In this document: piece by piece, positions 4,343 through 59,663 of the stretch
Numbering within the stretch: position 1 is the stretch's first letter
Layout: each line of letters begins with the position of its first letter
Source: Ginsengibacter sp.
Lineage (GTDB): Bacteria > Bacteroidota > Bacteroidia > Chitinophagales > Chitinophagaceae
DNA length: 64,000 bases
Reading direction: 5' to 3'
NCBI GenBank assembly: GCA_051959325.1
Contig: JBQCFI010000289.1
Location: 28,142 to 92,141, forward strand
Program-made: the position numbers and the translations under genes
Notes under the pieces: model-generated
Seen by the model: the letters and a program-made list of their open reading frames with translations, nothing else
What the model was told of the DNA's origin: nothing
Databases searched by the model: none

Positions 4343-5116
4343 ATGAAAATTGCATTATTCTCAGATATTCATTCCAACCTTCCTGCACTGGAGGCGTTTT
4401 TTAAAGATGTAGAAAATCACAAGCCTGATGTGCTTTATTGCCTTGGCGATTTAGTAGGTTATAATATCTGGCCAAATGAAGTAATCAGTGAAATAAGAAA
4501 AAGGCATATTCCAACAATTGCAGGCAATTATGATTTTGGGATTGGCAGAAAGAGTGATGATTGTGGCTGTGCTTATAAAGAAGAACATGAAAAAGAAATG
4601 GGCAAAATATCTATCTCTTTTACCAACTCAATTATAAAAGAAGAGGAAAGAAATTATTTAAGAACATTGCCAGCTCACATCAAAATAGAGTTTCAGTTGA
4701 ATGATGATAAACTGAATTTATTATTAGTGCATGGAAGTCCCCGAAAAATAAATGAGTATTTGTTTGAAGACAGGGAAGAAAAAAGTCTATTGAGAATAAT
4801 GGAACAGGCTGATGCAGACATTATGTGCTTCGGTCATACTCACAAACCTTATCACAGAATTTTACAAACAGTGTTAGATGAAAATACTCATTATCGTCAT
4901 GCAATAAACATTGGTTCAGTAGGCAAACCTAAAGACAGAAATCCAAAAGGTGGATATGTGATTCTTTCAGTAAATGAGAATAGTAGTATTTCCAATAAAG
5001 ACAGTGTATCAGTTGAATTTATGCGTTTTGATTATGACATAGAAAAAGCTGCAAAAGCAATAGAGGATAGCGAATTACCTGACGAGTATGCAGAAATGTT
5101 GAGGAAAGGACTGTGA
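4343..5116 (+). CDS. Metallophosphoesterase (calcineurin-like, YfcE-type), ars-associated
   Basis: SDIHSN, LGDLVGY, GNYD, HGSP, GHTHKP motifs; also DDCGCAY. Confidence 0.9.
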   Translation: MKIALFSDIHSNLPALEAFFKDVENHKPDVLYCLGDLVGYNIWPNEVISEIRKRHIPTIAGNYDFGIGRKSDDCGCAYKEEHEKEMGKISISFTNSIIKEEERNYLRTLPAHIKIEFQLNDDKLNLLLVHGSPRKINEYLFEDREEKSLLRIMEQADADIMCFGHTHKPYHRILQTVLDENTHYRHAINIGSVGKPKDRNPKGGYVILSVNENSSISNKDSVSVEFMRFDYDIEKAAKAIEDSELPDEYAEMLRKGL

Positions 5117-19878: not shown

Positions 19879-20982
19879 TTATTTTTTGACTCCAATAATA
19901 ATAGCATTTGCTACAGGATGATTGGCAGTAAATTTTAATCCTAAAAGTGAAGCAATTGTTTGTGCAAATTGCTTTTGATAAATCTGCATTTCTGTTTTTA
20001 ATTCACCTTTTGCAGGAATATCTGGCCCCATTACTGCAAACCATATCTCATTTGCGCCAGGAATATCACTTCCGTGGCTTGTCCATTGATTTTTATTATT
20101 ATCGCCGCGTCCATGGTCAACTGTAATGAATAATGAAGTTTTGTTCTTGTATTGCGGCTCACTTTGAATATAATTCCAAATGTCTTTTACCCATGCATCA
20201 AACTGATGCGCCGATTCCAGATAATCTTTGTAGTGACCTGCATGCGCCCATTCATCAGTTTCGCCATAAGCGATGTAAAGTAGCTTCGGCTTTTTGGTTT
20301 TCAAATATTCCATTGCTTCATATTGGGTAAACACATCAAGACATTCATCCATATCCCAGGGTTTATAAGAATCTCTGAGCATGGCATTAATCATCTTTTC
20401 TTTCGACGTTGCATTTTTTCCACCTGTTGGCGCAAATGCGGCTATTACCGGAAATCCGCAACGCGGTTTATTTAAAATTCTGTCGAAGGCTTCCCATGCG
20501 CCAAAAGCTGCAACACTATTTTTGAATTTCGGTTGCTTATTAATAAACTCCAAAACATTGGTATTGGGATTATTTTTATAATTGTTGGAATTAATTAACG
20601 TATCTACATAACCACAAAATATTTCGCTGTAGCCTGGATACGAGAACCAGTAAGGGTTTGAATTATTCACCTTATTTCCAAAAATACGATTTCCATATAT
20701 TTGTCCGTTTGCTGCAATCGTATTCCAAAGAAAAGGGAGCAATTTTTTTCTTCTCTCAGAAACATCGTTCGCCCAATATTTTTTAAAGATAAAAGTGCTG
20801 TCGCCCTGATTATATTTTCTGCGATTTGCAATCGCAGAATCCATTCCGCCAAATGCCTCCTGCCAGCGAAAACCATCAGTAGTGATGATTATGATATTTT
20901 CTGTTTTTTGCTGCGCAAAAGAAGGTTTTATGTTGGTTAAAAAAACAAACATAAGCAGCCACAAGATTTTAGGTTTTTTCAT
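19879..20982 (-). CDS. Secreted alkaline-phosphatase-superfamily metalloenzyme (phosphoglyceromutase-like)
   Basis: Signal peptide from ATG 20982 (MKKPKILW); IITTDGFRWQE, SYPGYSE, GETDEWAH, TVDHG. The track's extension to 21195 overlaps EamA and is judged spurious. Confidence 0.85.
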   Translation of the reverse strand: MKKPKILWLLMFVFLTNIKPSFAQQKTENIIIITTDGFRWQEAFGGMDSAIANRRKYNQGDSTFIFKKYWANDVSERRKKLLPFLWNTIAANGQIYGNRIFGNKVNNSNPYWFSYPGYSEIFCGYVDTLINSNNYKNNPNTNVLEFINKQPKFKNSVAAFGAWEAFDRILNKPRCGFPVIAAFAPTGGKNATSKEKMINAMLRDSYKPWDMDECLDVFTQYEAMEYLKTKKPKLLYIAYGETDEWAHAGHYKDYLESAHQFDAWVKDIWNYIQSEPQYKNKTSLFITVDHGRGDNNKNQWTSHGSDIPGANEIWFAVMGPDIPAKGELKTEMQIYQKQFAQTIASLLGLKFTANHPVANAIIIGVKK

Positions 20983-21134
20983 TATTAGTATTATTATTAA
21001 AAGTATTATTATTAAATTACTACAATAAAGATGACAACATTTTTTTGAAAATACAGCCTCAGAAACATCAAAACAACGTCTCTTTTTTAAAAACAGTACA
21101 GCAGTTTTACGAAAAAGCCGAAAAAAAGCAATCT

Positions 21135-21548
21135 TTATAAAATCAAAACAAGGCCTCCACCAATAATCAATAATGCGCCAATTGCGGTTCTCCATGTTAA
21201 TGGTTCTCCTAAAAATACTACCGCTAAGATTATTGCAATCGCAACACTCATTTTATCAATCGGCGCTACCTGCGATACTTCACCTAATTGAAGCGCCTTG
21301 AAATAAAATATCCATGAAAGGCCTGTGGCAACACCCGATAAGCAAAGAAAAATAATATTTTGTTTAGTTAGCGAATGCATTGTGTAAGCGCCGCCCCTGA
21401 TAAATGCAATGCCCCAGGCAATGATTAAAATAACAATTGTTCGAATGGCTGTCGCCAAATCGGTATCCACTCCTTTGATGCCTACTTTTGCGAAGATGGC
21501 TGTCAATGCTGCAAATAAAGCAGCAAGTAAGGCATATATCCACCACAT
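21135..21548 (-). CDS. Single-domain EamA/DMT-family transporter
   Basis: ALFAALTAIFAKVG, LATAIRT, SWIFYFKAL, VAPIDKMS, FLGE. Confidence 0.9.
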   Translation of the reverse strand: MWWIYALLAALFAALTAIFAKVGIKGVDTDLATAIRTIVILIIAWGIAFIRGGAYTMHSLTKQNIIFLCLSGVATGLSWIFYFKALQLGEVSQVAPIDKMSVAIAIILAVVFLGEPLTWRTAIGALLIIGGGLVLIL

Positions 21549-21552
21549 AATT

Positions 21553-22140
21553 TTAAGTTTTAAGTTTATAAAATTTCAATTCAAGCTGTTGATAAATTAG
21601 TGCAAACATCCATCCTGTAAAACTACCAAAGAAGATTCCTCCAATTACATCGCCAGGAAAATGAACACCGAGATAAACCCGGCTATAGCAGACTAATAAT
21701 GCCCATGCAAAAAGCAAATAAGGAAACCATTTAATTTTTTGTTTTGTAATTAATGTAAGGTAAATAGTCAGACCGCTTACATTACAGGCATGAGCGGAAA
21801 TAAAACCAACCTGTCCTCCGCGATAATTGTTTACATAATGTAATAAATTTTCAATGCCGGGAATATGGCTTGGCCGCAATCTTATTTCCATTGATCTTAT
21901 AACCGTTGATGCAATCTGATCGGTACAAACAACTAAAGGAATAATTAGAAGAATTAGAAGCCAGCTTTTTTTACGGTAATAAAATATCAGCAGAAGAATC
22001 AGCAAAAAATAAAACGGATACCAGGAAGTTTCTCCGCTTGCGAACCACATAATTTTGTCCCAGAATAAATTATGATGACTGTTTATCAGCAACAATAGTT
22101 GTTTGTCCCAATAATTAATCCATCGAAGAAATGCCTGCAT
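21553..22140 (-). CDS. PAP2-family membrane phosphatase #3
   Basis: RSMEIRLRP, FISAH (PSGH variant), SRVYLGVHFPGD. Confidence 0.9.
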   Translation of the reverse strand: MQAFLRWINYWDKQLLLLINSHHNLFWDKIMWFASGETSWYPFYFLLILLLIFYYRKKSWLLILLIIPLVVCTDQIASTVIRSMEIRLRPSHIPGIENLLHYVNNYRGGQVGFISAHACNVSGLTIYLTLITKQKIKWFPYLLFAWALLVCYSRVYLGVHFPGDVIGGIFFGSFTGWMFALIYQQLELKFYKLKT

Positions 22141-22741
22141 CTTTTAAAAAATTTTGTTTAATAAAAACCCGGCTGATTATAACAGCTAAGCCGGAACTGA
22201 TAATCATAGAAGCAATGACATCACTTGGATAATGGACACCTAAAACAACCCGTGAATATGCTACCATAAACGCCCATATCCAGATTAAAAACAACCACAC
22301 ATTTTGTTTTGGAAATAAAATACTCAGGGAAGTTGCAATTAAAAAGGCATCTGCTGTGTGTCCGGATGGAAAAGAAGGGCTGCCACCACCTGATAGCTTT
22401 TCTATAAATGAATCCACTTCATAAGGCCGCTGCCGGTTTACCACCTGTTTAATGATTTCTATTATTATCGTATTAATGCCAAGGGAAATGAGTATCAGCC
22501 AGCTTTGCCTTTTTAATTTAAACCGATGTTTTACGAAGGCATATATCAAAAGAAAGACCGGTATTGCATAAGCTACAATATAAGAAGTGTTGGTGATGAA
22601 AATAAAAAAACCATCTAACGGCTTTATTCTTTCATGATTGATGAATTCTAAAAGTTGTAAATCCATTTCATACAATACACGAAAAAAATGTGCAAGAAGA
22701 AAGAAAAGAAAATGTGTGAAGGAAAGATAGAATGTGTGCAC
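22115..22741 (-). CDS. PAP2-family membrane phosphatase #4
   Basis: KQVVNRQRP, FPSGH, SRVVLGVHYPSD; start is GTG 22741 or ATG 22666. Confidence 0.9.
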   Translation of the reverse strand: MHTFYLSFTHFLFFLLAHFFRVLYEMDLQLLEFINHERIKPLDGFFIFITNTSYIVAYAIPVFLLIYAFVKHRFKLKRQSWLILISLGINTIIIEIIKQVVNRQRPYEVDSFIEKLSGGGSPSFPSGHTADAFLIATSLSILFPKQNVWLFLIWIWAFMVAYSRVVLGVHYPSDVIASMIISSGLAVIISRVFIKQNFLKDAGISSMD

Positions 22742-22775
22742 GCCTATAAGATTTAAATTTTATGATTTAAATAAT

Positions 22776-22828
22776 GCAGGCGCCATCAGTCCCTTTCGGG
22801 ACGGTTATACAGGAAGGCTCCATTTCCA
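22776..22828 (-). ncRNA. Fluoride riboswitch (crcB motif) #3
   Basis: Minus strand GGAAATGGAGCCTTCC-TGTATAACC-GTCCC GAAA GGGAC-TGATGGCGCCTGC: same layout as the copies before CLC and crcB; one A-G mismatch in the pseudoknot. Confidence 0.8.
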
Positions 22829-22836
22829 AAAGTCGG

Positions 22837-51502: not shown

Positions 51503-51863
51503 AGCTATAAAAATTAAGGGGCCATAAAATTACAAATTTTACCGTTTTTAAAAAACGATTGATAAAAAAGGAACTTTAAGTCCGCTAACAATCTAATGTA
51601 ATAAACTGCATCCGGATAACACCCAATACAACCTGGAGAACGTTTTTGTTGGATAAAGAGATTAGAAAATAGGTGCTGTTCAAAATAATTTGTACCATGG
51701 TTCATAGCTTTTTGGTGTGGTAATCATTTGAGCTATGAAAAAGGGCTTGATTTGCTTAACCCTTTCTTTTATTCTTTTTCTAGGCAATGAGAGAAAATGA
51801 ATAAATTAAAAAACGTGTTTTGATTCTTTGTGATTTCTTTTATTATCTTCGCGCACTTTTCAC

Positions 51864-51921
51864 AGGAAATGGTGTCTTCCTGAACCAACCGCTTGGCCTT
51901 ATAACCAGCTAATGGCGCCTA
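51864..51921 (+). ncRNA. Fluoride riboswitch (crcB motif) #1
   Basis: GGAAATGGTGTCTTCC-TGAACCAACC-GCTTGG..CCAGC-TAATGGCGCCTAC directly upstream of CLC(F); -7-like TATCTTCG at 51844-51851. Confidence 0.92.
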
Positions 51922-51961
51922 CAAATTATTAGTAGTAATAAACCCGTTATAATTTGTAGGA

Positions 51962-53338
51962 ATGAAGCGAATCAAAACCTCGTTTGAACATATTTTCATA
52001 GTATCTCATCTTCTAAAATGGACGCTGCTTGTATTGCCTGTTTCCATTTCCATTGGCTCAATGGTAGCGTTGTTTCTTTGGCTTTTAGAGAAGGCGATTG
52101 ATTTTCGTTTTGCTCATCAGTGGCTGTTGTTTCTTCTTCCTTTAGCAGGTATTCTTATTTATTTTTTGTACAAATATTTGGGGAAAAATTCTGAAGGCGG
52201 CAACAATCTTATTATGGATGAAATCCATGAACCAGGAGGCGGAATTCCGGCAAGAATGGCACCTTTGGTTTTGTTAACGACTATTATCACACATCTTTTT
52301 GGTGGTTCTGCAGGAAGGGAAGGAACTGCAGTTCAGATTGGCGGAAGCATTGCGCAATTTTTTGCCAGAAAATTTAATCTCACCAAAGAAGAAGTAAAAA
52401 TGTTGTTACAGACAGGAATCGCAGCAGGCTTCGGTGCGGTATTTGGAACACCTATTACCGGCGCCATATTCGCACTGGAAGTTTTGGCAGTAGGCAGAAT
52501 AAAACATGATGCATTATTACCTTGTTTCATGGCAAGTGTTTTGGCAGATATTACCTGCAATGCGTGGGGCATTCACCACACTCAATATCACATGAATTTG
52601 ACAGAAGTTGGCAACACACTTTTTTTAAATTTCCATTTTGATTTTCTGTTATTGATTGAAGTAATTATTGCAGGAGTACTTTTCGGTTTGGTTGGTTTTT
52701 TATTTGCTGAGACCTCACACACCATTTCAAATTATAGTAAAAGATTCATTAAAATCCGCTGGCTGATTCCTGCAATTGGCGGTATAGCGATTATTGCCTT
52801 TACTTATATTTTAGGAACACGTGATTATTTAAGCTTGGGTGTTTTCAATCCTGATAAAAATGGAGTTTCTGTTCTCTCCTGTTTTCAAGCGGGAGGCGCG
52901 ACTTCCTTAAGCTGGTTATGGAAATTATTGTTTACTGCCATTACTCTAGGAACAGGTTTTAAAGGCGGGGAAGTAACACCGTTATTTTTTATTGGAGCAG
53001 CATTAGGAAATACTATTGCGGTACTTACCGGAGCGCCGGTTGATTTAATGGCTGGCCTGGGTTTTATCGCAGTATTTGCGGGAGCTACGAACACACCAAT
53101 AGCTTGCACGCTAATGGGAGTGGAATTATTTGGAGGAGGTAATGTGCTTTACTTTGCTGTGGCTTGTTTTTCCGCCTATTATTTCAGTGGTCATTCCGGT
53201 ATTTATCATTCGCAAAGAGTCGCTGTTTCTAAAGTGAATCATTTAAATCATCATACAAATACCACACTTTTGGAAGTGCGGAATAAAAGAATAAAAAAGA
53301 GAAAACAATGGATAAAAAAATCAAAACTCATTCGTTAG
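51962..53338 (+). CDS. eriC: CLC-family fluoride/H+ antiporter (CLC-F)
   Basis: The F-specific clade signatures GNNLI, GREGT and GEVTP are all present. Confidence 0.93.
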
Positions 53339-53676
53339 GTAAATTAGAAATATACATTGAGCCTGCACATAAAGTGCGTCATGGAGACAGAACTTTATTT
53401 AGAAAATTATTTCCAAAGTCGGTCTATATGCATATTATTTTGGAGGCCAAAAAAGAAGGTATAATCAATACTTCGGCGCACAGTACACATACAAGTTTTA
53501 GCAGTGAAGGAAAAATGACTACTTACAATATGGAAGGCGATAATTCTAAACTTAACATGTGTGTTGAATTAGTTGATAAGAAAGAAAAATTGCAGGAATT
53601 TTTCTTAAAACATAAAGAACTTCTTCGTTCAAAAGTTGTTATTTATAAAGAGGTGGAATTTTGGGATATTGAATGA
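53308..53676 (+). CDS. DUF190 / PII-like protein
   Basis: LEIYI, I..AKKEGI..SA, CVELVD pattern, similar to 54967-55323; overlaps the CLC stop. Confidence 0.75.
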
Positions 53677-53899
53677 ATATCAAACCACAAATTGCATTTT
53701 TCACAGTATTGAAACTAGTATTGACTTGGCGGTAAAAACAGAAACGCTTCATTCTTTTTGTGTAGACTGGAAGCCAAAGTTTTTGAATAAAGAACTAAAG
53801 GAGTTGCTGAGCAAATACTGAACCTGTACCCTTAATTTTGAAAAAGGAATTTTTCCTGTAGCTTTTTGAAAAAAATTCTTTACCTAAAAATATTATAAA

Positions 53900-54319
53900 A
53901 TGAAAGAAGTGATTGCTGCCGGTGGCCTTGTTGTCAATGAATTTAATGAAATTCTTTTTATTTACAGACATTCTAAATGGGATTTACCCAAAGGCCATTG
54001 GGAAAAAGGAGAAACGATAGAAAATTGCGCTTCGCGCGAAGTAAAGGAGGAGACAGGGTTGGAGCATGTTTCTATAACCAGATTTATTGGAAAAACAGTG
54101 CATAATTATTTTGATAGCTATCTAAATGCAGAAGCGGTAAAAGAGACGCATTGGTTTGAAATGCATGCCGGTAAAAGCCAGGAGTTTCATCCCCAAACCG
54201 AAGAAGATATTGAATGGATAAAATGGGTTAGTCCCGCTGGGGTTCATTTTTATCTCAAAAATTCCTACCAAAATATAGCGGAAATCCTTGAAAAATCAGA
54301 CCTCATTCCATCGTATTAA
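53900..54319 (+). CDS. NUDIX hydrolase
   Basis: WDLPKGHWEKGETIENCASREVKEETGL Nudix box. Confidence 0.92.
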   Translation: MKEVIAAGGLVVNEFNEILFIYRHSKWDLPKGHWEKGETIENCASREVKEETGLEHVSITRFIGKTVHNYFDSYLNAEAVKETHWFEMHAGKSQEFHPQTEEDIEWIKWVSPAGVHFYLKNSYQNIAEILEKSDLIPSY

Positions 54320-54456
54320 AATAGTCTTTTCAACGGAAAAAATAAACTGAAAAAAAATTTTGCAGGTGATTATTTACAGTAAATGAACTTTTAATTAAGA
54401 ATTCACTTTTAATTTTTTCTAACTTATTCCCGTTTAAAGAATTCCATTATTTTTAA

Positions 54457-54488
54457 AATCCTTTTTTAAATTAATCCTTTTTTAAATT
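54457..54488. repeat. Perfect 16-bp tandem repeat upstream of the crcB promoter
   Basis: AATCCTTTTTTAAATT x2. Confidence 0.85.
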
Positions 54489-54508
54489 AAACACTTAATT
54501 TTGAAAAA

Positions 54509-54564
54509 AGGAAATGGAGTTTTCCTATTATAAACCGTCCTGAAAGAAGGAATGATAACTCCTG
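54509..54564 (+). ncRNA. Fluoride riboswitch (crcB motif) #2
   Basis: GGAAATGGAGTTTTCC-TATTATAAACC-GTCC..GGA-ATGATAACTCCTG; perfect GGAGTT/AACTCC pseudoknot; -7 box TAATTTTG at 54496-54503. Confidence 0.92.
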
Positions 54565-54586
54565 TTCATTTGTAAAACAAATTACA

Positions 54587-54964
54587 ATGTACAGGATTTT
54601 GGTTTACGTTTTCGTTGGCAGTGCTCTTGGTGGAGTTTGCCGGTTTCTTTCCCAACAATTTGTTCAAAAAAATTTCCCTTCTTACATTCCTTTAGGCACT
54701 TTAACTGTCAACATAATCGGCTCATTTATAATCGGCATTATTTATGCGCTTTCCGAAAAAAGCATCATTTCTCCTGAAGTCAGGATTCTAATAGCCACCG
54801 GGTTTTGCGGTGGCTTTACTACTTTTTCTTCATTCGCTTTTGAGAATGTAAAGCTCTTGCAGGATGGCGAATTTTTTAATACAGGATTATACGTTTTATT
54901 AAGTATAGTCATTGGATTTTTCTCTGTTTACCTCGGCATTTTATTCACTAAATTAATCTCTTAA
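54587..54964 (+). CDS. crcB: Fluc/CrcB fluoride channel
   Basis: GSALGGVCR, GTLTVNIIGSF, TGFCGGFTTFSSF. Confidence 0.96.
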   Translation: MYRILVYVFVGSALGGVCRFLSQQFVQKNFPSYIPLGTLTVNIIGSFIIGIIYALSEKSIISPEVRILIATGFCGGFTTFSSFAFENVKLLQDGEFFNTGLYVLLSIVIGFFSVYLGILFTKLIS

Positions 54965-54966
54965 TT

Positions 54967-55323
54967 ATGGAACTAAGCCGTGATTCAAAATTGCTAAGAA
55001 TCTTTATTGGTTCAATAGATAGTGTAGGCCATCAGCCATTATATGAAGCAATTGTTTTTGCCGCAAAAAAAGAAGGCCTGGCTGGAGCTTCGGTAACCAA
55101 AGGGATTTTATCCTTTGGCGCTTCTTCTTTGGTGCATACAGCAAAGCTGATTGATATTTCAGAAGATTTGCCAATTGTAATTGAAATTGTTGACCATGAA
55201 GAAAAGATTATGCCTTTTGTTGAAGTTGCAAGTAAGTTATTAGAAAAAGCAAATTGCGGCGGCCTTATCACCATTGAAAAAGCGCAGGTGCTTTATTACA
55301 AGTCAAAGAATATAGATCAATGA
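54967..55323 (+). CDS. DUF190 protein
   Basis: LRIFIG, PLYEAIV..AKKEGLAGASV..GI..FG, DLPIVIEIVD. Confidence 0.92.
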   Translation: MELSRDSKLLRIFIGSIDSVGHQPLYEAIVFAAKKEGLAGASVTKGILSFGASSLVHTAKLIDISEDLPIVIEIVDHEEKIMPFVEVASKLLEKANCGGLITIEKAQVLYYKSKNIDQ

Positions 55324-55415
55324 TGTCTTGGGAAGATTAGAAGTAAACAAAATAAATCTTCAAAAGAAGAAGCAGGAAAATCCCGCGTCGGAGCAATTAA
55401 GCTAAAACAAGAAAT

Positions 55416-56606
55416 ATGATCCGAGAAGAAAAGACAGTAAAAACAGCTACAAGATTTGTAATTCTCCTAGGTTGCGTCAGTCTTTTTTCAGATATGACTT
55501 ATGAAGCAGCCCGTAGTATCAGCGGCCCGTACCTGAGCATTCTTGGAGTTTCAGGCGCTACTGTTGGATGGGTAGCAGGATTGGGAGAGTTATTAGGGTA
55601 TGGTTTGAGAATTGTTTCCGGTTACATCAGTGATAAAACAAAAAAGTACTGGACAATTACCATCATTGGTTATTTATTGAATTTATTTTCAGGGCCGTTA
55701 TTAGCTTTTGCAGGTTATTGGCAACTGGCTGTAGTTTTAATGATCACAGAAAGAATCGGTAAAGCCATCCGCACCCCTGCACGAGATGCGATGTTGTCTT
55801 ATGGAGCAAAAGAAATGGGACGTGGCTGGGGCTTTGGCTTACATGAAGCGATGGATCAAACCGGCGCAACGGTTGGGCCTTTGCTTGTGAGCGCTGTTTT
55901 ATTTTATAAAAATCAATCTTATCATATTGCATTTTTAATACTTTTTATTCCGGCTATTATCGCCATATTCATTCTCTTGTTTGCAAAGTCGCAATATCCA
56001 AAACCACAGGACTTAGAAATAGAAAATATTGAAATTAAAACCAAAGGTTATCCCAGACTTTTCTGGCTTTATTTATTTGCAGTCATTTTTATTGCCGCCG
56101 GTTATGCCGATTTTCCATTGATTGCTTATCATTTTAAAAAAATTAATTTAATGCGTGATGCTACTATCCCCATTTTGTATGCTATCGCGATGGCTGCGGA
56201 TGGAATATCAGCGCTGTTCCTGGGAAAAATGTTTGACAAATTTGGAATGAAAACGATGATTGTAGTCACTTTTATTTCTTTATTTTTTGCACCTATGGTT
56301 TTTTTAGGTGGCTTTGATTGGGCCATTGTTGGAATGATCGTTTGGGGCATCGGAATGGGTGCACAGGAATCCATTTTAAAAGCAGCCGTAGCGGAGTTAA
56401 TTCCAACTTACAAACGCGGAACTGCATTTGGATTGTTCAACACAGGCTTCGGTATTTTCTGGTTTTTAGGAAGCTTGGCTTTGGGATATTTATACGATTA
56501 CTCGATTCCCTGGCTGATTGCTTTTTCTGTAATCACGCAAGTGATTGCTGTAATTATTTTGATAATACTTACTTATCACGCTAAAAATAAAATGCAGGCA
56601 ATTTAG
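55416..56606 (+). CDS. MFS transporter
   Basis: SLFSDMTYE, G.ISDKTKK, ERIGKAIRTPARDA, GLHEAMDQ.GA; about 12 TM segments. Confidence 0.92.
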   Translation: MIREEKTVKTATRFVILLGCVSLFSDMTYEAARSISGPYLSILGVSGATVGWVAGLGELLGYGLRIVSGYISDKTKKYWTITIIGYLLNLFSGPLLAFAGYWQLAVVLMITERIGKAIRTPARDAMLSYGAKEMGRGWGFGLHEAMDQTGATVGPLLVSAVLFYKNQSYHIAFLILFIPAIIAIFILLFAKSQYPKPQDLEIENIEIKTKGYPRLFWLYLFAVIFIAAGYADFPLIAYHFKKINLMRDATIPILYAIAMAADGISALFLGKMFDKFGMKTMIVVTFISLFFAPMVFLGGFDWAIVGMIVWGIGMGAQESILKAAVAELIPTYKRGTAFGLFNTGFGIFWFLGSLALGYLYDYSIPWLIAFSVITQVIAVIILIILTYHAKNKMQAI

Positions 56607-56624
56607 CCTGCTAAAAAAATAATC

Positions 56625-57047
56625 ATGAATTATGAAATATCAGAAAATCATTTGCGAAGCTTTAGTTCTTTAGCTCACGTGATAGAACGTAAATTACTGG
56701 AGATGCAAATAGCAATTGTTGCACACCGGCATCACCTGCGTTTTGTGCACGTTCATTATGCTGATTCTTTTTCAGAAGAAGAATTAAAAAAAATTGAAGA
56801 TGCCATTAATGTAATGTATGATCTGTTGGAAAAATTTTGTAAAGATTTTGAATTAAAACCGGAGCAAGGCGATTTAAGAAATGAGTTAATGATTAAAGCT
56901 AATTTTTTATGGGAAGACTTAAACGGCGCTACTGCAAGGAGTTTAAAAGGGCATGGCGAAATAAACAAAGATGTAAAAATGGATTATGAACAAAAAATCA
57001 CACGGATGATTGATGCAACCAATAACCTTATAAACCAATTCAATTAA
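56625..57047 (+). CDS. Hypothetical helical protein within the crcB operon
   Basis: Tight spacing (18 nt and 5 nt gaps); no recognised motif. Confidence 0.75.
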   Translation: MNYEISENHLRSFSSLAHVIERKLLEMQIAIVAHRHHLRFVHVHYADSFSEEELKKIEDAINVMYDLLEKFCKDFELKPEQGDLRNELMIKANFLWEDLNGATARSLKGHGEINKDVKMDYEQKITRMIDATNNLINQFN

Positions 57048-57052
57048 ATATT

Positions 57053-58333
57053 ATGCAGATTACAAAAGTTCATGCAATAGAAATTCTGGATTCAAGAGGC
57101 AACCCGACAGTAGAAGCAACTGTGGTTCTGGATGATAAATATTCAGGAAGAGGCATTTCACCATCCGGGGCAAGTACCGGGGAGAAAGAAGCGGTTGAAT
57201 TAAGAGATGGCGATAAAAACCGTTACGATGGAAAAGGCGTTTCCAAAGCAGTTGACAATGTAAACAGAATTATAGCTCATGCGCTTACAGGAAAGGAAGT
57301 TACACTTCAAAAAGAAGTGGATGATAGTATGATAGCATTTGATGGCACACCTAACAAATCACATTTGGGTGCCAACGCTATTTTGGCCGTATCCATTGCC
57401 TTTGCAAGAGCATCTGCCGCTTACAAAAAAATTCCTTTGTTCCGGCAATTTAATAATCAGTCCAAATACATTATGCCCGTGCCTTGCATGAATGTAATCA
57501 ATGGCGGACGGCACGCGGATAACAATATTGACTTCCAGGAATTTATGATTGCACCACACAATGCGCCATCATTCAAAGAAGCCATCCGCATGGGCGAAGA
57601 AACTTTTCATACGCTAAAAGACATTCTAAAAGCCAAAGGATATTATACGGGCGTGGGCGATGAAGGAGGATTTGCGCCCAACTTAAAATCAAATGAAGAA
57701 GCCATCGAAGTAATCCTAGAAGCCATTACAAAAGCCGGATATGCGCCGGGCAAAGACATTTCATTATGCATAGACCCTGCTTCCAGTGAAATGTGGAATG
57801 ATGGAAAATATATTTTTTTTAAAAGCACAAAAGAAGAAAAGACAAGCGACCAGATGATTGCGCTCTGGGAAAGTTGGATATCACAATATCCTATCATTTT
57901 ATTAGAAGATGGTCTGGGTGAAAATGACTGGGATGGCTGGCAGGATTTAACGCAACAGTTGGGCAGCAAAGTAGAATTGGTAGGCGATGATATTTTCTGT
58001 ACCAATCCAGTCATCCTGAAAGAAGGAATTGAAGCAAAAATTGCAAATTCTGTTTTAATAAAACTCAATCAAATCGGCACCGTAACTGAAACACTTCAAA
58101 CGATTGATTTGGCTTACCAAAATAATTACAATTGTTTTATCTCGCACCGCAGTGGCGAAACAGAAGACACCACCATTTCAGATTTAACCGTTGCCACAGG
58201 TGCCGGGCATTTAAAAACCGGTAGCGGTTGCCGTGGAGAAAGAGTGGCTAAATTCAACCAGTTGTTACGCATTGAAGAACAATTAGGAAGCGATGCAAGT
58301 TTTGCCGGCATTAAAGCATTTAAAAATCAATAA
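57053..58333 (+). CDS. eno: Enolase
   Basis: ILDSRGNPTVE, PSGASTG, DFQEFM, GDEGGFAP, IKLNQIGT, SHRSGETED. Confidence 0.97.
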   Translation: MQITKVHAIEILDSRGNPTVEATVVLDDKYSGRGISPSGASTGEKEAVELRDGDKNRYDGKGVSKAVDNVNRIIAHALTGKEVTLQKEVDDSMIAFDGTPNKSHLGANAILAVSIAFARASAAYKKIPLFRQFNNQSKYIMPVPCMNVINGGRHADNNIDFQEFMIAPHNAPSFKEAIRMGEETFHTLKDILKAKGYYTGVGDEGGFAPNLKSNEEAIEVILEAITKAGYAPGKDISLCIDPASSEMWNDGKYIFFKSTKEEKTSDQMIALWESWISQYPIILLEDGLGENDWDGWQDLTQQLGSKVELVGDDIFCTNPVILKEGIEAKIANSVLIKLNQIGTVTETLQTIDLAYQNNYNCFISHRSGETEDTTISDLTVATGAGHLKTGSGCRGERVAKFNQLLRIEEQLGSDASFAGIKAFKNQ

Positions 58334-58335
58334 TC

Positions 58336-58884
58336 ATGGAAAATTTTAAAAATGTATCAAATCCCTGGCATATTTCAATAGGAGATCATACTCCTCAAGT
58401 AGTAAATGCGGTTATTGAAATCCCAAAAGGTGGCAGTATGAAATATGAACTGGACAAGAGTTCAGGATTATTAAAATTAGACAGGGTGATATATTCATCC
58501 ATGCATTATCCTATGAATTATGGTTTAATCCCGCAAACTTATTTTGATGATGGAGATCCGCTTGATATTCTTGTGCTTTGCTCCATGCCGATAGTTCCGC
58601 TTTGTCTCATGGACGCACGGGTAATTGGTATTATGCACATGGTGGATGATCAGGGTGTTGATGATAAAATTTTGGCAGTTGCACAACACGATCCTTCACT
58701 TGTTCACATAAATGATATAAAACATCTTCAGCAACACCAGATGAACGAATTAAAAAATTTTTTTGAAGGGTATAAAGCATTGGAAAATAAAAAAGTTGAA
58801 GTAGGAAACATGTTGGGAAAGGAAGAAGCTTATGATTGTATTATGCGAAGCATAAAATTATATAAAGAGAAATTCAAAAAGTAA
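58336..58884 (+). CDS. ppa: Family I soluble inorganic pyrophosphatase
   Basis: EIPKG..KYE, YP.NYG.IPQT, DGDPLD, DDKIL. Confidence 0.95.
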   Translation: MENFKNVSNPWHISIGDHTPQVVNAVIEIPKGGSMKYELDKSSGLLKLDRVIYSSMHYPMNYGLIPQTYFDDGDPLDILVLCSMPIVPLCLMDARVIGIMHMVDDQGVDDKILAVAQHDPSLVHINDIKHLQQHQMNELKNFFEGYKALENKKVEVGNMLGKEEAYDCIMRSIKLYKEKFKK

Positions 58885-59663
58885 TGCGCATAGCCGTTAT
58901 CAGCGATATTCATGCAAATCTCCCTGCATTGGAAGAAGTTTTAAAAGCACTTCGTTCACAAAACGTAGATGCGGTTTATTGTTTGGGCGATGTAGTAAAC
59001 CAAAACGTATGGAACAATGAAGTAATTACGCTTTTGAAAGAAAACAACATATTTGTTATAAAAGGAAATCACGATGCCGGGATTGGTGCGGACAAAAGAA
59101 ATTTTGAATTTTCTTTTTCATCCAGAGATACCGAAAAAAGCGGAAAGGAAGCAATTGAATACACCTTGCAGCAGGTAACGCCAGAAAATAAAGCGATTCT
59201 TAATTCTTATCATTTAGAAAAAAAATTAGTGTATCATTCTAAAGATGGACAATCATTGAAACTCTTGCTAACACACGGTGTTCCGGGAGATTTTAATCAA
59301 AGGCTTTGGCGCTTTTTACCCAAAGATCGTTTTGCCCAAATCATGCAAGATGCAGATGTTGATATTTTACTTACCGGCAATACGCATAGTCCGCATCACA
59401 TTATTATCCCTGTAGAAAGTGAAGGAGAAACAATATATAAACATGCCATTAATCCGGGCGCAATTGGAAAAACAAATGATGGTGATTGGCGAAGCAGTTA
59501 CGCAATAATCACTTTTCATCCGGAAAAGGATTTGCATAAAGAAAAAGAAGCCGTACAGGTAGATTTTTACAGGTTGGAATATGATTTGGACAGGGCGGTA
59601 AAAGCGATACAAAACAGCCCGTTGTCAATTTTATATGCCGGGTTTTTAATTGGTGGACAGTGA
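58884..59663 (+). CDS. Metallophosphoesterase, paralog of 4343-5116
   Basis: SDIHAN, LGDVV, GNHD, HGVP, GNTHSP; TAATG coupling to ppa. Confidence 0.88.
   Translation: MRIAVISDIHANLPALEEVLKALRSQNVDAVYCLGDVVNQNVWNNEVITLLKENNIFVIKGNHDAGIGADKRNFEFSFSSRDTEKSGKEAIEYTLQQVTPENKAILNSYHLEKKLVYHSKDGQSLKLLLTHGVPGDFNQRLWRFLPKDRFAQIMQDADVDILLTGNTHSPHHIIIPVESEGETIYKHAINPGAIGKTNDGDWRSSYAIITFHPEKDLHKEKEAVQVDFYRLEYDLDRAVKAIQNSPLSILYAGFLIGGQ

What the first reader, a model, noticed from the sequence alone, without database searches (positions are those of the whole stretch)
54509..59663. Seven-gene fluoride operon supplying spare copies of fluoride's classic targets
Seen: riboswitch-crcB-DUF190-MFS-hypothetical-eno-ppa-metallophosphoesterase, with gaps of 92 nt or less and no evident terminator. 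Known: enolase and family I pyrophosphatase are textbook Mg-fluoride targets, and riboswitch-linked enolase has been reported. Inference: this is a target-replacement operon whose Eno and Ppa may be fluoride-tolerant isozymes. Export plus three replacement enzymes under one switch is an unusually complete design.
Basis: partly seen in the sequence, partly recalled or inferred. Interest (0 to 1): 0.74.

Follow-up and report, generated by a model that had tools for sequence, protein, structure and literature searches.

The report
Fluoride-switched operon with spare enolase
A fluoride-sensing RNA switch sits in front of a fluoride exporter plus second copies of enolase and pyrophosphatase; this design is already published, but the enolase belongs to a distinct, mobile, exporter-linked lineage whose barrel core is remodelled beneath the active site, so it may be a fluoride-adapted enzyme.

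Summary
An Rfam fluoride riboswitch (46.6 bits) precedes crcB, DUF190, MFS, a 140-aa orphan, eno, a family I ppa and a metallophosphoesterase. Gaps are at most 92 nt. The contig holds all four fluoride riboswitches of the genome within 46 kb.

The refutation test fails. A housekeeping enolase (56% identity) and two other PPases lie elsewhere in the genome.

The design is not unusual. E. cloacae FRM (2017) and Pantoea, Klebsiella and Listeria plasmids carry switch-exporter-enolase(-PPase) operons. Near-identical islands occur in other Bacteroidota and on an Adhaeribacter plasmid.

Three results are new here:
- The operon enolase falls in a separate clade (SH-aLRT 97) that mixes Bacteroidota orders.
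- This clade is almost always next to a fluoride exporter or riboswitch and usually accompanies a housekeeping copy.
- It carries signature substitutions in seven of the eight barrel strands, mostly on the same strand face as a catalytic or metal-binding residue. Nine of them recur in the enterobacterial plasmid enolases.

This points to a specialised enzyme rather than simple dosage, but fluoride tolerance is untested. The PPase shows only a weak signature, so dosage is the simpler reading for it. The phosphoesterase is a recurrent island gene of unknown substrate, not a known replacement target.

The parts
54496..54503 (+). Bacteroidota-type -7 promoter box TAATTTTG, just upstream of the aptamer core
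   Evidence: Read from the sequence. It matches the TAnnTTTG consensus, recalled from established knowledge of Bacteroidota promoters. Assigning it as the promoter is inference.
54501..54571 (+). Fluoride riboswitch aptamer (crcB motif, RF01734)
   Evidence: cmscan 46.6 bits against a gathering score of 34, E 9e-10, full model 1-64. Confirmed in the whole-genome search.
54560..54605 (+). Expression platform: a hairpin that uses the aptamer's 3' pseudoknot strand (UCCUGU...ACAGGA), encloses the crcB AUG (54587) and is followed by UUUUGGUUU
   Evidence: The MFE and centroid folds both give this hairpin. The z-score is only -1.1, so the energy alone is not significant. Its role in termination or start-codon occlusion is inferred.
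54587..54964 (+). crcB (Fluc fluoride channel), 125 aa
   Evidence: PF02537 E 2.7e-32. TIGR00494 114.7 bits against a cut-off of 80.45. The GFCGGFTTFSSF motif is visible in the translation.
54967..55323 (+). DUF190 protein, 118 aa; a recurrent Fluc partner of unknown function
   Evidence: PF02641 E 2.1e-30. It is adjacent to crcB here, on C533, and in G012, L051, L155, L157 and the Adhaeribacter and Listeria plasmids.
55416..56606 (+). MFS_1 transporter, 396 aa, substrate unknown
   Evidence: PF07690 E 7.6e-43; no NCBIfam equivalog. An MFS gene holds the same position in G012 by ORF size and order (395 aa, not compared), in L155 (96% identity) and in G121/L126 (63%).
56625..57047 (+). Orphan 140-aa all-helical protein, always directly upstream of the linked-type enolase
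   Evidence: No Pfam, NCBIfam or PDB match. Only 16 homologs were found in 5.8 billion proteins. The AlphaFold model has pLDDT 89 and is all-helical, with four long helices. No Foldseek hit at E <= 0.001. It is found upstream of eno in G011 (60% identity; there the riboswitch lies directly in front of it), in L155, in L074 as two ORF fragments, and in L126 as a partial hit at the locus edge (adjacency not checked).
57053..58333 (+). Second enolase, 426 aa, a member of the exporter-linked enolase clade
   Evidence: TIGR01060 639.9 bits. All catalytic and metal residues are kept. Clade support is SH-aLRT 97. Signature residues are C145, A167, H169, C239, L283, E308, C316, F362, H386, C393, E396 and F401.
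58336..58884 (+). Additional family I soluble inorganic pyrophosphatase, 182 aa
   Evidence: PF00719 E 1.5e-56. All 14 catalytic residues are conserved. It forms an eno-ppa pair in L050, L071, L126, L155, L156 and L157, and by ORF size and order in G012.
58884..59663 (+). Calcineurin-like metallophosphoesterase, 259 aa, substrate unknown
   Evidence: PF00149 and PF12850. Nearest PDB entries are 3rqz, 3qfm and 2qjc. Paralogs lie at window 4343-5116 and at C289:92537-93310. It is conserved after ppa in L050, L155 and L126, and a 258-aa ORF follows ppa in G012.
51856..53676 (+). Neighbouring unit: a second fluoride riboswitch (51856-51928), CLC-type exporter (51962-53338) and divergent DUF190 (53308-53676)
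   Evidence: RF01734 45.7 bits. PF00654 E 1.7e-71 and PF02641 E 2.5e-08.
53900..54319 (+). NUDIX hydrolase, 139 aa, just upstream of the riboswitch; the same position is conserved in two relatives
   Evidence: PF00293 E 7.1e-21. A NUDIX gene lies directly upstream of the riboswitch in L156 and L157.
19879..22836 (-). Third riboswitch unit of the island: riboswitch (22770-22836), then PAP2, PAP2, a small EamA transporter and an alkaline-phosphatase-superfamily protein
   Evidence: RF01734 44.7 bits; Pfam. In Pedobacter a PAP2-like ORF and a small EamA-like ORF lie between the riboswitch and eno-CLC, identified by reading the ORF sequences. On the Adhaeribacter plasmid PAP2 genes and an EamA transporter lie in the same region as eno-CLC.

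Best explanation
This is a fluoride-inducible resistance operon inside a mobile, multi-riboswitch fluoride island of a Bacteroidota genome.

Shown:
- A bona fide fluoride aptamer lies 15 nt before crcB.
- A predicted hairpin uses the aptamer's 3' pseudoknot strand, encloses the crcB start codon and is followed by a U-rich tract.
- Seven co-oriented genes follow, with gaps of at most 92 nt.
- The enolase and PPase are additional copies.
- The enolase belongs to a separate enolase lineage. That lineage is spread by horizontal transfer, including on plasmids. It is almost always adjacent to a fluoride exporter or riboswitch and usually coexists with a housekeeping enolase.
- That lineage keeps every catalytic and metal residue. 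It has concerted substitutions in seven of the eight barrel strands, most on the same strand face as a catalytic or metal residue. Nine of these are shared with the enterobacterial plasmid enolases of the experimentally studied FRM operon type.

Inferred:
- Fluoride binding locks the pseudoknot and prevents the hairpin, so the operon is expressed.
- Fluc exports fluoride, while extra enolase and PPase restore the glycolytic step and PPi hydrolysis that Mg-fluoride complexes block.
- The enolase is a fluoride-adapted isozyme with lower affinity for the Mg2-F2-Pi inhibitory complex. The family I PPase most likely acts by dosage.
- DUF190, the MFS transporter, the 140-aa helical protein and the metallophosphoesterase are conserved accessory parts whose roles are unknown.
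For: - Riboswitch and genes.
- All four riboswitches of the genome lie on this contig.
- The hairpin over the AUG, followed by a U tract.
- Housekeeping enolase on C274/C182, 56% identical to the operon copy. It is 93% identical to a same-genus housekeeping copy.
- Other PPases on C533 and C309.
- Within the genus, only 2 of 24 other genomes have this enolase type. Only 5 of the 26 genus genomes searched, this one included, have any fluoride riboswitch.
- Of the 32 related loci with an enolase at least 65% identical, 26 have a riboswitch upstream on the same strand. 27 have an adjacent CLC-F or crcB. None of the 48 loci at 63% identity or below has either. Rfam confirmed 8 of 8 sampled custom-model hits.
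- The clade has SH-aLRT support of 97 and mixes Flavobacteriales, Cytophagales, Chitinophagales, Sphingobacteriales, Bacteroidales and Ignavibacteriota.
- Plasmid copies occur in Adhaeribacter, Persicobacter and Spirosoma.
- 11 of 14 host genomes also hold a housekeeping-type enolase.
- Signature residues are present in 25-29 of 29 linked sequences and at most 1 of 74 others, and are shared by the Pantoea and Klebsiella plasmid enolases.
- These residues lie in barrel strands 143-150, 163-168, 236-241, 281-285, 308-310, 360-364 and 386-388 of a pLDDT-90 model.
- A tree that constrains the Bacteroidota and enterobacterial linked enolases (with L078 and L101) together is not rejected. Its lnL is 20 higher than the free quick tree, p-AU 0.735.
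- Published induction of about 100-fold and knockout phenotypes exist for the FRM operon (PMC5533749).
Against: - No expression data were available for this locus, so co-transcription of the five genes after the 92-nt gap is assumed.
- In relatives the enolase unit often has its own riboswitch directly upstream (G011, L156, L075, Adhaeribacter plasmid). Here it does not.
- The hairpin's energy is not better than shuffled sequence (z -1.1).
- Fluoride tolerance of the enolase is untested. The fluorides in the known inhibitory complex mimic the substrate carboxylate, so tolerance without a catalytic cost is not obviously achievable.
- The signature could be inherited baggage of one mobile cassette. 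The Listeria plasmid enolase is also riboswitch-linked but lacks it.
- Residue positions relative to the active site come from sequence and predicted secondary structure, not from measured distances.
Confidence: 0.72

Rival explanations
1. Pure dosage. The extra enolase and PPase are kinetically ordinary and help only by raising total enzyme. The enolase clade and its signature reflect common descent of a mobile cassette that travels with exporters, not adaptation to fluoride.
For: - All catalytic residues are unchanged.
- The PPase has only about six clade-specific positions.
- The published reading is overproduction (PMC11139923; PMC5533749).
- The riboswitch-linked Listeria plasmid enolase lacks the signature.
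- Five clade members have no exporter or riboswitch nearby.
Against: - Simple dosage could be met by duplicating the resident gene. Instead a 56%-identical foreign lineage is kept across several orders, and 11 of 14 hosts retain a separate housekeeping copy.
- The signature replaces residues that are 93-100% conserved in 74 other enolases (Q313, Q391, A244, S288, M150 in E. coli numbering). It clusters in seven of the eight barrel strands, around the active site.
- The same nine changes occur in enterobacterial plasmid enolases that are only 53% identical overall.
Confidence: 0.3
2. Split control. Only crcB-DUF190 is riboswitch-controlled. MFS, the 140-aa gene, eno, ppa and the phosphoesterase form a separate unit transcribed from a promoter in the 92-nt gap, under other or no regulation.
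For: - The only sizeable gap (55324-55415) precedes the MFS gene.
- In G012 the corresponding gap is 243 nt.
- In relatives the enolase units carry their own riboswitch, which shows the modules are separable.
- L155 is a mosaic in which crcB-DUF190 was exchanged independently of the rest.
Against: - No + strand terminator and no riboswitch lie in the gap.
- All genes are co-oriented and the other junctions are 0-18 nt.
- The FRM operon is co-transcribed through comparable junctions (PMC5533749).
Confidence: 0.15
3. The enzymes work on fluoride-derived phosphoryl adducts or on nucleotide pyrophosphates rather than replacing blocked steps. The phosphoesterase, NUDIX, PAP2 and PPase genes would clear compounds that accumulate or form under fluoride stress, such as Ap4A, PPi or fluorophosphate. 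The enolase would be a passenger.
For: - The island is rich in phosphoesterases: three metallophosphoesterase paralogs, NUDIX, three PAP2, HAD, a phospholipase-C-like phosphoesterase and an NPP-type phosphodiesterase.
- The nearest solved relatives of the metallophosphoesterase are Ap4A-hydrolase/phosphodiesterase types.
- Nudix-type Ap4A hydrolases are strongly fluoride-inhibited (recalled from the literature, not checked here).
- The review notes that phosphatases are over-represented in fluoride regulons.
Against: - No substrate evidence of any kind was obtained.
- The enolase is the most consistently exporter-linked gene in these loci.
- The PPase is a canonical family I enzyme.
Confidence: 0.08

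Closest known systems
Enterobacter cloacae FRM fluoride-resistance operon (ppaC-uspA-eno-gpmA-crcB-orf5249; Liu et al. 2017, PMC5533749) and its plasmid copies in Pantoea and Klebsiella
   Same: - A fluoride riboswitch sits in front of an operon that joins a Fluc exporter with additional enolase and pyrophosphatase copies.
- It lies on a horizontally acquired island or plasmid.
- The enolases share nine signature residues with the one here.
   Different: - The PPase there is family II (DHH/DHHA2, Mn-dependent); here it is family I.
- FRM adds a universal stress protein, phosphoglycerate mutase and a P-type ATPase fragment. This operon adds DUF190, an MFS transporter, a 140-aa orphan and a metallophosphoesterase.
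- The enolases are only about 53% identical.
- FRM has expression and knockout data; this locus has none.
Fluoride riboswitch regulon as defined by Baker et al. 2012 (crcB, CLC-F, Na+/H+ antiporters, enolase, pyrophosphatase, MutS-related, HAD and others; taken from the 2024 review PMC11139923, since the original paper was not held)
   Same: The riboswitch family, the exporters, enolase and PPase are all listed as frequent riboswitch-associated genes. MutS-related genes also lie behind the fourth riboswitch here.
   Different: That work lists gene associations. In what I could read, it does not describe the linked enolases as a separate lineage with active-site-proximal signature substitutions.
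Bacteroidota fluoride islands found here: JGI metagenome contig L155, Agriterribacter L050, same-genus G012, Adhaeribacter swui plasmid NZ_CP055154
   Same: - L155 has the same order: riboswitch-CLC-DUF190, then riboswitch-crcB-DUF190-(NhaP)-MFS-140aa-eno-ppa-MPE-MPE-MutS-MutS. Its enolase is 93% identical.
- G012 shows the same run by ORF size and order, but without the 140-aa gene.
   Different: - This window lacks the Na+/H+ antiporter.
- It has a phospholipase-C-like phosphoesterase and an NPP phosphodiesterase inserted between the two metallophosphoesterases.
- Its crcB-DUF190 module is only 60-71% identical to that of L155, so the islands are mosaics.

Membership tests
Fluoride riboswitch (Rfam RF01734) | Covariance-model score above the curated gathering threshold over the full model | tested here: met
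   46.6 bits against 34, model positions 1-64, E 9e-10. Found again in the whole-genome search.
Fluoride riboswitch (Rfam RF01734) | Located in the 5' leader of a fluoride-related gene, with an expression platform that competes with the pseudoknot | tested here: inconclusive
   The aptamer ends 15 nt before crcB. The predicted hairpin 54560-54596 uses the 3' pseudoknot strand and covers the AUG, but its energy z-score is only -1.1.
Fluoride riboswitch (Rfam RF01734) | Selective fluoride (Mg-F) binding and a ligand-dependent change in gene expression | not testable with these tools
   Needs in-line probing or reporter assays.
Fluc / CrcB fluoride channel | Match above the curated equivalog cut-off, and the conserved TM3 motif | tested here: met
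   TIGR00494 114.7 bits against 80.45. PF02537 E 2.7e-32. GFCGGFTTFSSF is present in the translation.
Enolase (phosphopyruvate hydratase, TIGR01060) | Full-length match above the cut-off, and all catalytic and metal residues present (E. coli S42, H159, E168, E209, D246, E290, D317, K342, H370, R371, K393) | tested here: met
   639.9 bits against 300. Every listed residue is conserved in the alignment with the E. coli chromosomal enolase.
Family I soluble inorganic pyrophosphatase (PF00719) | Pfam match, and the 14 active-site residues of E. coli PPase (E20, K29, E31, R43, Y51, Y55, D65, D67, D70, D97, D102, K104, Y141, K142) | tested here: met
   190.9 bits against 23.5. All 14 residues are conserved. 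The NCBIfam equivalog NF002317 scored 168.7, below its cut-off of 200.
Riboswitch-controlled fluoride operon with spare target enzymes (E. cloacae FRM type) | Riboswitch, exporter, enolase and PPase co-oriented in one cluster | tested here: met
Riboswitch-controlled fluoride operon with spare target enzymes (E. cloacae FRM type) | The enolase and PPase are additional to copies elsewhere in the genome | tested here: met
   An enolase lies on C274/C182. PPases lie on C533 and C309.
Riboswitch-controlled fluoride operon with spare target enzymes (E. cloacae FRM type) | Fluoride-induced co-transcription and a contribution to resistance | not testable with these tools
YfcE-type metallophosphoesterase (TIGR00040) | Score above the subfamily cut-off | tested here: not met
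   52.3 bits against 56.25. Only the superfamily assignment holds (PF00149/PF12850).
Exporter-linked ('fluoride-type') enolase clade (defined here) | Placement in the clade, plus signature residues C145, A167, H169, C239, L283, E308, F362, H386 and E396 | tested here: met
   SH-aLRT 97. All nine signature residues are present.

The most novel reading that the evidence does not exclude
The riboswitch- or exporter-linked enolases of Bacteroidota islands and of enterobacterial fluoride-resistance plasmids form one mobile, cross-phylum 'fluoride-type' enolase subfamily. In it, the barrel core layer beneath the Mg ligands and K393 is remodelled: M150C, Q/M172A, V174H, A244C, S288L, Q313E, V367F, Q391H and D401E in E. 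coli numbering. These changes lower the affinity for the Mg2-F2-phosphate inhibitory complex. The result would be a naturally fluoride-tolerant enolase rather than a mere extra dose.
Probability: 0.4. Interest if true: 0.7.

Novelty: new member of a known kind. Interest (0 to 1): 0.45.

Why it matters
The operon itself adds one more example to a published design, so it does not change the picture of fluoride defence.

The enolase is the useful lead. Fluoride inhibition of enolase is a textbook case, and the current view is that bacteria simply make more enzyme. A conserved, horizontally spread enolase lineage with a defined set of about nine second-shell substitutions gives a directly testable route to a fluoride-tolerant enolase. 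That is of practical interest for engineering organofluorine degradation or synthesis strains, where fluoride toxicity is a stated bottleneck (PMC11139923).

The analysis also flags conserved island parts of unknown role: the 140-aa helical protein that always precedes this enolase, the tandem metallophosphoesterases, the MFS transporter and DUF190.

Tried and rejected
- Strict DNA pattern search for the aptamer across loci. It found only 2 of the related loci, so I replaced it with a custom covariance model. Rfam then confirmed 8 of 8 sampled hits.
- The 140-aa protein. There was no Pfam or NCBIfam hit, no PDB sequence hit and no Foldseek PDB hit at E <= 0.001 despite a pLDDT-89 model. Its function is left open.
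- PPase phylogeny. Identity runs as a continuum from 85% to 60% and the tree is poorly resolved, so I do not claim a separate fluoride-type PPase clade. None of the 29 best PPase loci from 300 class genomes had a riboswitch within 1.5 kb. One of them (L126) later proved to be an eno-ppa-MPE-MFS cluster.
- The Pantoea pPV989-94 record CP028352.1 is not in the plasmid collection. I used the Pantoea vagans plasmid NZ_CP014126 instead.
- Baker et al. 2012 (PMC4140402) is not held. Its content is cited only through the 2024 review.
- The divergent second enolases in G017, G020 and G022 (41-49% identity) have no riboswitch nearby. I did not pursue them.
- Measuring 3D distances between the signature residues and the metal site was not possible, because model coordinates are not exposed. 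Only the DSSP strand assignment was used.

Full report
**Observation.**
- Rfam's fluoride riboswitch model matches 54501-54571 on the + strand at 46.6 bits (gathering score 34, E 9e-10).
- Seven co-oriented ORFs follow:
  - crcB 54587-54964
  - DUF190 54967-55323
  - an MFS_1 transporter 55416-56606
  - a 140-aa ORF 56625-57047 with no family match
  - enolase 57053-58333
  - a family I pyrophosphatase 58336-58884
  - a calcineurin-like metallophosphoesterase 58884-59663
- The gaps are 2, 92, 18, 5 and 2 nt, and the last two genes overlap by one base.
- The consensus scan gives no + strand terminator in any intergenic gap.
- A Bacteroidota-type -7 box (TAATTTTG, 54496-54503) sits just before the aptamer core.
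- Both the MFE and centroid folds of 54545-54625 give a hairpin (54560-54596) built from the aptamer's 3' pseudoknot strand. It encloses the crcB AUG and is followed by UUUUGGUUU. Its energy is not better than shuffles (z -1.1). An earlier first-reader note on this genome proposed the same start-codon-occluding hairpin.

**Wider setting.**
- The window is part of a 97.6-kb contig of a fragmented genome: 565 contigs, 4.82 Mb, 38% GC, 94% complete.
- The genome has four fluoride riboswitches, all on this contig within 46 kb:
  - One drives PAP2-PAP2-EamA and an alkaline-phosphatase-like gene on the minus strand.
  - One drives a CLC-type exporter with a divergent DUF190.
  - One is the operon under study.
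  - One, just beyond the window, drives two MutS-domain-V proteins.
- So the operon is one unit of a fluoride island.
- Only 5 of the 26 genus genomes searched, this one included, have any fluoride riboswitch. Only 2 of 24 other genus genomes have this enolase type. The island is therefore accessory.

**Are these spare copies?** Yes.
- A second enolase, 56% identical, is split over the ends of contigs C274 and C182. The two ends overlap by 702 nt at 94.6% identity, which indicates strain variation in the assembly.
- That copy is 93% identical to a same-genus housekeeping enolase and sits inside the housekeeping Bacteroidota clade.
- Two more family I PPases exist: 57% identity on C533 and 33% on C309.
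- One nuance: the C533 PPase lies directly after a second crcB-DUF190 pair that has no riboswitch. A crcB or DUF190 gene lies next to ppa in two other genomes of the family as well. Even the core PPase is therefore exporter-linked.

**Is the design unusual?** No.
- Liu et al. 2017 described a riboswitch-controlled ppaC-uspA-eno-gpmA-crcB-orf5249 operon in E. cloacae FRM. It shows roughly 100-fold fluoride induction and knockout phenotypes, and the authors explicitly read the enzymes as additional copies of inhibited targets (PMC5533749).
- A 2024 review lists enolase and pyrophosphatase among the genes most often riboswitch-linked (PMC11139923).
- In the plasmid collection, 360 records carry an enolase. 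I inspected several:
  - Pantoea: riboswitch, DHHA2 PPase, usp, eno, gpmA, crcB.
  - Klebsiella: the same, truncated by an IS element.
  - Listeria: riboswitch, DUF190, crcB, crcB, eno, antiporter.
- Among Bacteroidota, metagenome contig L155 has the same island almost gene for gene, with an extra Na+/H+ exchanger.
- Same-genus G012 shows the same run by ORF size and order, without the 140-aa gene.
- Agriterribacter L050 and Sphingobacterium L071 carry eno-ppa with exporters and metallophosphoesterases.
- An Adhaeribacter swui plasmid carries PAP2, PAP2, riboswitch, eno, CLC, DUF190 and crcB, with EamA, PAP2 and an RND pump on the other strand.

**The enolase is not an ordinary duplicate.**
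- A scan of one genome per species returned 80 loci encoding relatives. I searched them with a covariance model built from seven Rfam-validated aptamers and with tblastn for the operon proteins.
- Of the 32 loci whose enolase is at least 65% identical to the operon copy, 26 have a fluoride riboswitch upstream on the same strand and 27 have an adjacent CLC-F or crcB.
- None of the 48 loci at 63% identity or below has either. Rfam confirmed all eight custom-model hits that I re-tested.
- In a maximum-likelihood tree of 111 enolases, all 31 linked sequences fall in one clade with SH-aLRT 97. Five unlinked high-identity sequences and two lower-identity outliers (L078, L101) join them.
- That clade is separate from the housekeeping Bacteroidota clade, which has SH-aLRT 100.
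- The clade mixes Flavobacteriales, Cytophagales, Chitinophagales, Sphingobacteriales, Bacteroidales and Ignavibacteriota, so its branching does not follow taxonomy.
- Members lie on plasmids of Adhaeribacter, Persicobacter and Spirosoma.
- In 11 of 14 host genomes checked, a housekeeping-type enolase is also present. The three exceptions are metagenome-assembled genomes.

**Signature substitutions.**
- I compared 25 distinct clade members with 73 other enolases. About 25 positions are at least 80% fixed in the clade and at most 5% present outside.
- All catalytic and metal residues are unchanged (E. coli S42, H159, E168, E209, D246, E290, D317, K342, H370, R371, K393).
- The signature positions, in own numbering with the E. 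coli equivalent in brackets:
  - C145 (M150)
  - A167 (Q172)
  - H169 (V174)
  - C239 (A244), two residues before D246
  - L283 (S288), two before E290
  - E308 (Q313), four before D317; Q in 74 of 74 others
  - C316 (V321)
  - F362 (V367), two before S369
  - H386 (Q391), two before K393
  - C393 (S398)
  - E396 (D401)
  - F401 (Y406); Y in 74 of 74 others
- In a pLDDT-90 AlphaFold model, seven of these lie in seven of the eight barrel strands: 143-150, 163-168, 236-241, 281-285, 308-310, 360-364 and 386-388.
- By beta-strand periodicity they face the same side as the catalytic residue at the strand end. I therefore read them as a remodelled core layer beneath the active site. This is inference, because distances could not be measured.
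- The Pantoea and Klebsiella plasmid enolases of the FRM operon type are only 52-54% identical to this enolase, and 51-54% identical to the E. coli chromosomal enzyme.
- Even so, they share nine of these residues: C145, A167, H or W at 169, C239, L283, E308, F362, H386 and E396. They also have R at position 45, where the Bacteroidota clade has K or R.
- A tree that constrains the Bacteroidota-type and enterobacterial linked enolases into one group, together with L078 and L101, has a log-likelihood 20 higher than the free quick-search tree. It is not rejected (p-AU 0.735).
- The riboswitch-linked Listeria plasmid enolase lacks the signature, so the signature is not universal.
- I found no paper describing such a subfamily or a fluoride-tolerant enolase. 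The library is incomplete, so this is not proof of absence.

**The PPase.**
- All 14 active-site residues of E. coli PPase are conserved.
- Relatives at 67-81% identity sit in eno-ppa pairs behind riboswitches in all three contexts inspected.
- Identity to other Bacteroidota PPases falls as a continuum and the tree is unresolved.
- Only about six positions separate seven verified linked PPases from 30 others. Two of them are near Y55 and D65.
- Nothing here argues for tolerance, so dosage is the simpler reading.

**The other genes.**
- The metallophosphoesterase has two paralogs, both on the same contig. Its nearest solved relatives are 3rqz, the S. pneumoniae Ap4A hydrolase/phosphodiesterase 3qfm, and a putative Ap4A-ase 2qjc.
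- It misses the YfcE subfamily cut-off. It recurs, often in tandem, in the related islands. It is a conserved island component of unknown substrate, not a spare copy of a known housekeeping target.
- The 140-aa protein has only 16 homologs in 5.8 billion proteins. It is modelled confidently as all-helical, with four long helices, and has no structural or sequence match in the PDB.
- Wherever its context could be read it lies directly upstream of the linked-type enolase. In G011 the riboswitch drives just this pair.

**Mechanism.**
- Shown: the aptamer, the gene set, the extra-copy status, and the separate mobile enolase lineage with its signature.
- Inferred:
  - Fluoride binding stabilises the pseudoknot, prevents the hairpin and turns on the operon.
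  - Fluc lowers cytoplasmic fluoride.
  - The extra enolase and PPase restore flux at two Mg-fluoride-sensitive steps.
  - The enolase is probably adapted and the PPase probably acts by dose.
- Main uncertainties: whether the five distal genes are co-transcribed through the 92-nt gap, and whether the enolase is really less fluoride-sensitive.

**Verdict.**
- The operon is a new member of a known kind.
- The follow-up worth doing is biochemical: compare operon-type and housekeeping enolases for fluoride inhibition and test the nine shared substitutions.

Noticed in passing
G000 contig C533:8881-10235 (outside the window; locus L005): A second crcB (49% identity), DUF190 (58%) and family I ppa (57%) form a cluster. 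No fluoride riboswitch lies within 676 nt upstream. A crcB or DUF190 gene also lies next to ppa in two other genomes of the family (L128, L149). So the core PPase of this family sits beside the core Fluc.
   Followed up: partly
Loci L052-L062 (eleven named Pedobacter species): All eleven have identical enolase proteins and near-identical spacing (within 1 nt) of riboswitch, a PAP2-like ORF, a small EamA-like ORF, eno and CLC-F. This suggests very recent spread of one element across species, or a shared contaminant.
   Followed up: no
window 19879-22836 (-), with L052 and the Adhaeribacter plasmid L158: The PAP2 plus small EamA module behind the first riboswitch recurs. In Pedobacter, PAP2-like and EamA-like ORFs lie between the riboswitch and eno-CLC-F. 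On the Adhaeribacter plasmid, PAP2 genes and an EamA transporter lie in the same region as eno-CLC. This agrees with an earlier follow-up note on this genome.
   Followed up: partly
G000:C289:94035-97349 (locus L011:2036-5350), just beyond the window end: A fourth fluoride riboswitch precedes two tandem MutS-domain-V proteins (507 and 508 aa). The same pair follows the metallophosphoesterases in L155, lies upstream of the enolase unit in L156, and one MutS-like gene follows them at the contig end of L050.
   Followed up: partly
L042:13455-15130 (same-genus genome G012): A fluoride riboswitch (55.5 bits) sits directly in front of an M20 family metallopeptidase. I did not see this association mentioned in the papers read.
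   Followed up: no
L041:10807-12492 (G011) and L157:1470-3119: A dynamin-like GTPase lies next to the riboswitch-enolase units in two relatives. This matches earlier scan notes that dynamin-like GTPases recur in fluoride riboswitch regulons.
   Followed up: no
window 59986-64191 (+): A secreted 822-aa beta-propeller plus phospholipase-C-like phosphoesterase and a 551-aa NPP-type phosphodiesterase lie between the two metallophosphoesterase paralogs. Those paralogs are adjacent in L155, L050 and (by ORF order) G012. This looks like an insertion into the island.
   Followed up: no
L161:5289-5332 (Listeria monocytogenes plasmid pOB040119): A Na+ riboswitch (RF03071, 40.9 bits) sits between the fluoride-operon enolase and a cation:proton antiporter. 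One plasmid operon therefore carries two different ion riboswitches in series.
   Followed up: no
L155 compared with window 51962-59663: The islands are mosaics. CLC-F is 97% identical, MFS 96%, enolase 93% and the metallophosphoesterase 86%, but crcB is only 60% and DUF190 71%. This indicates module exchange inside the island.
   Followed up: no
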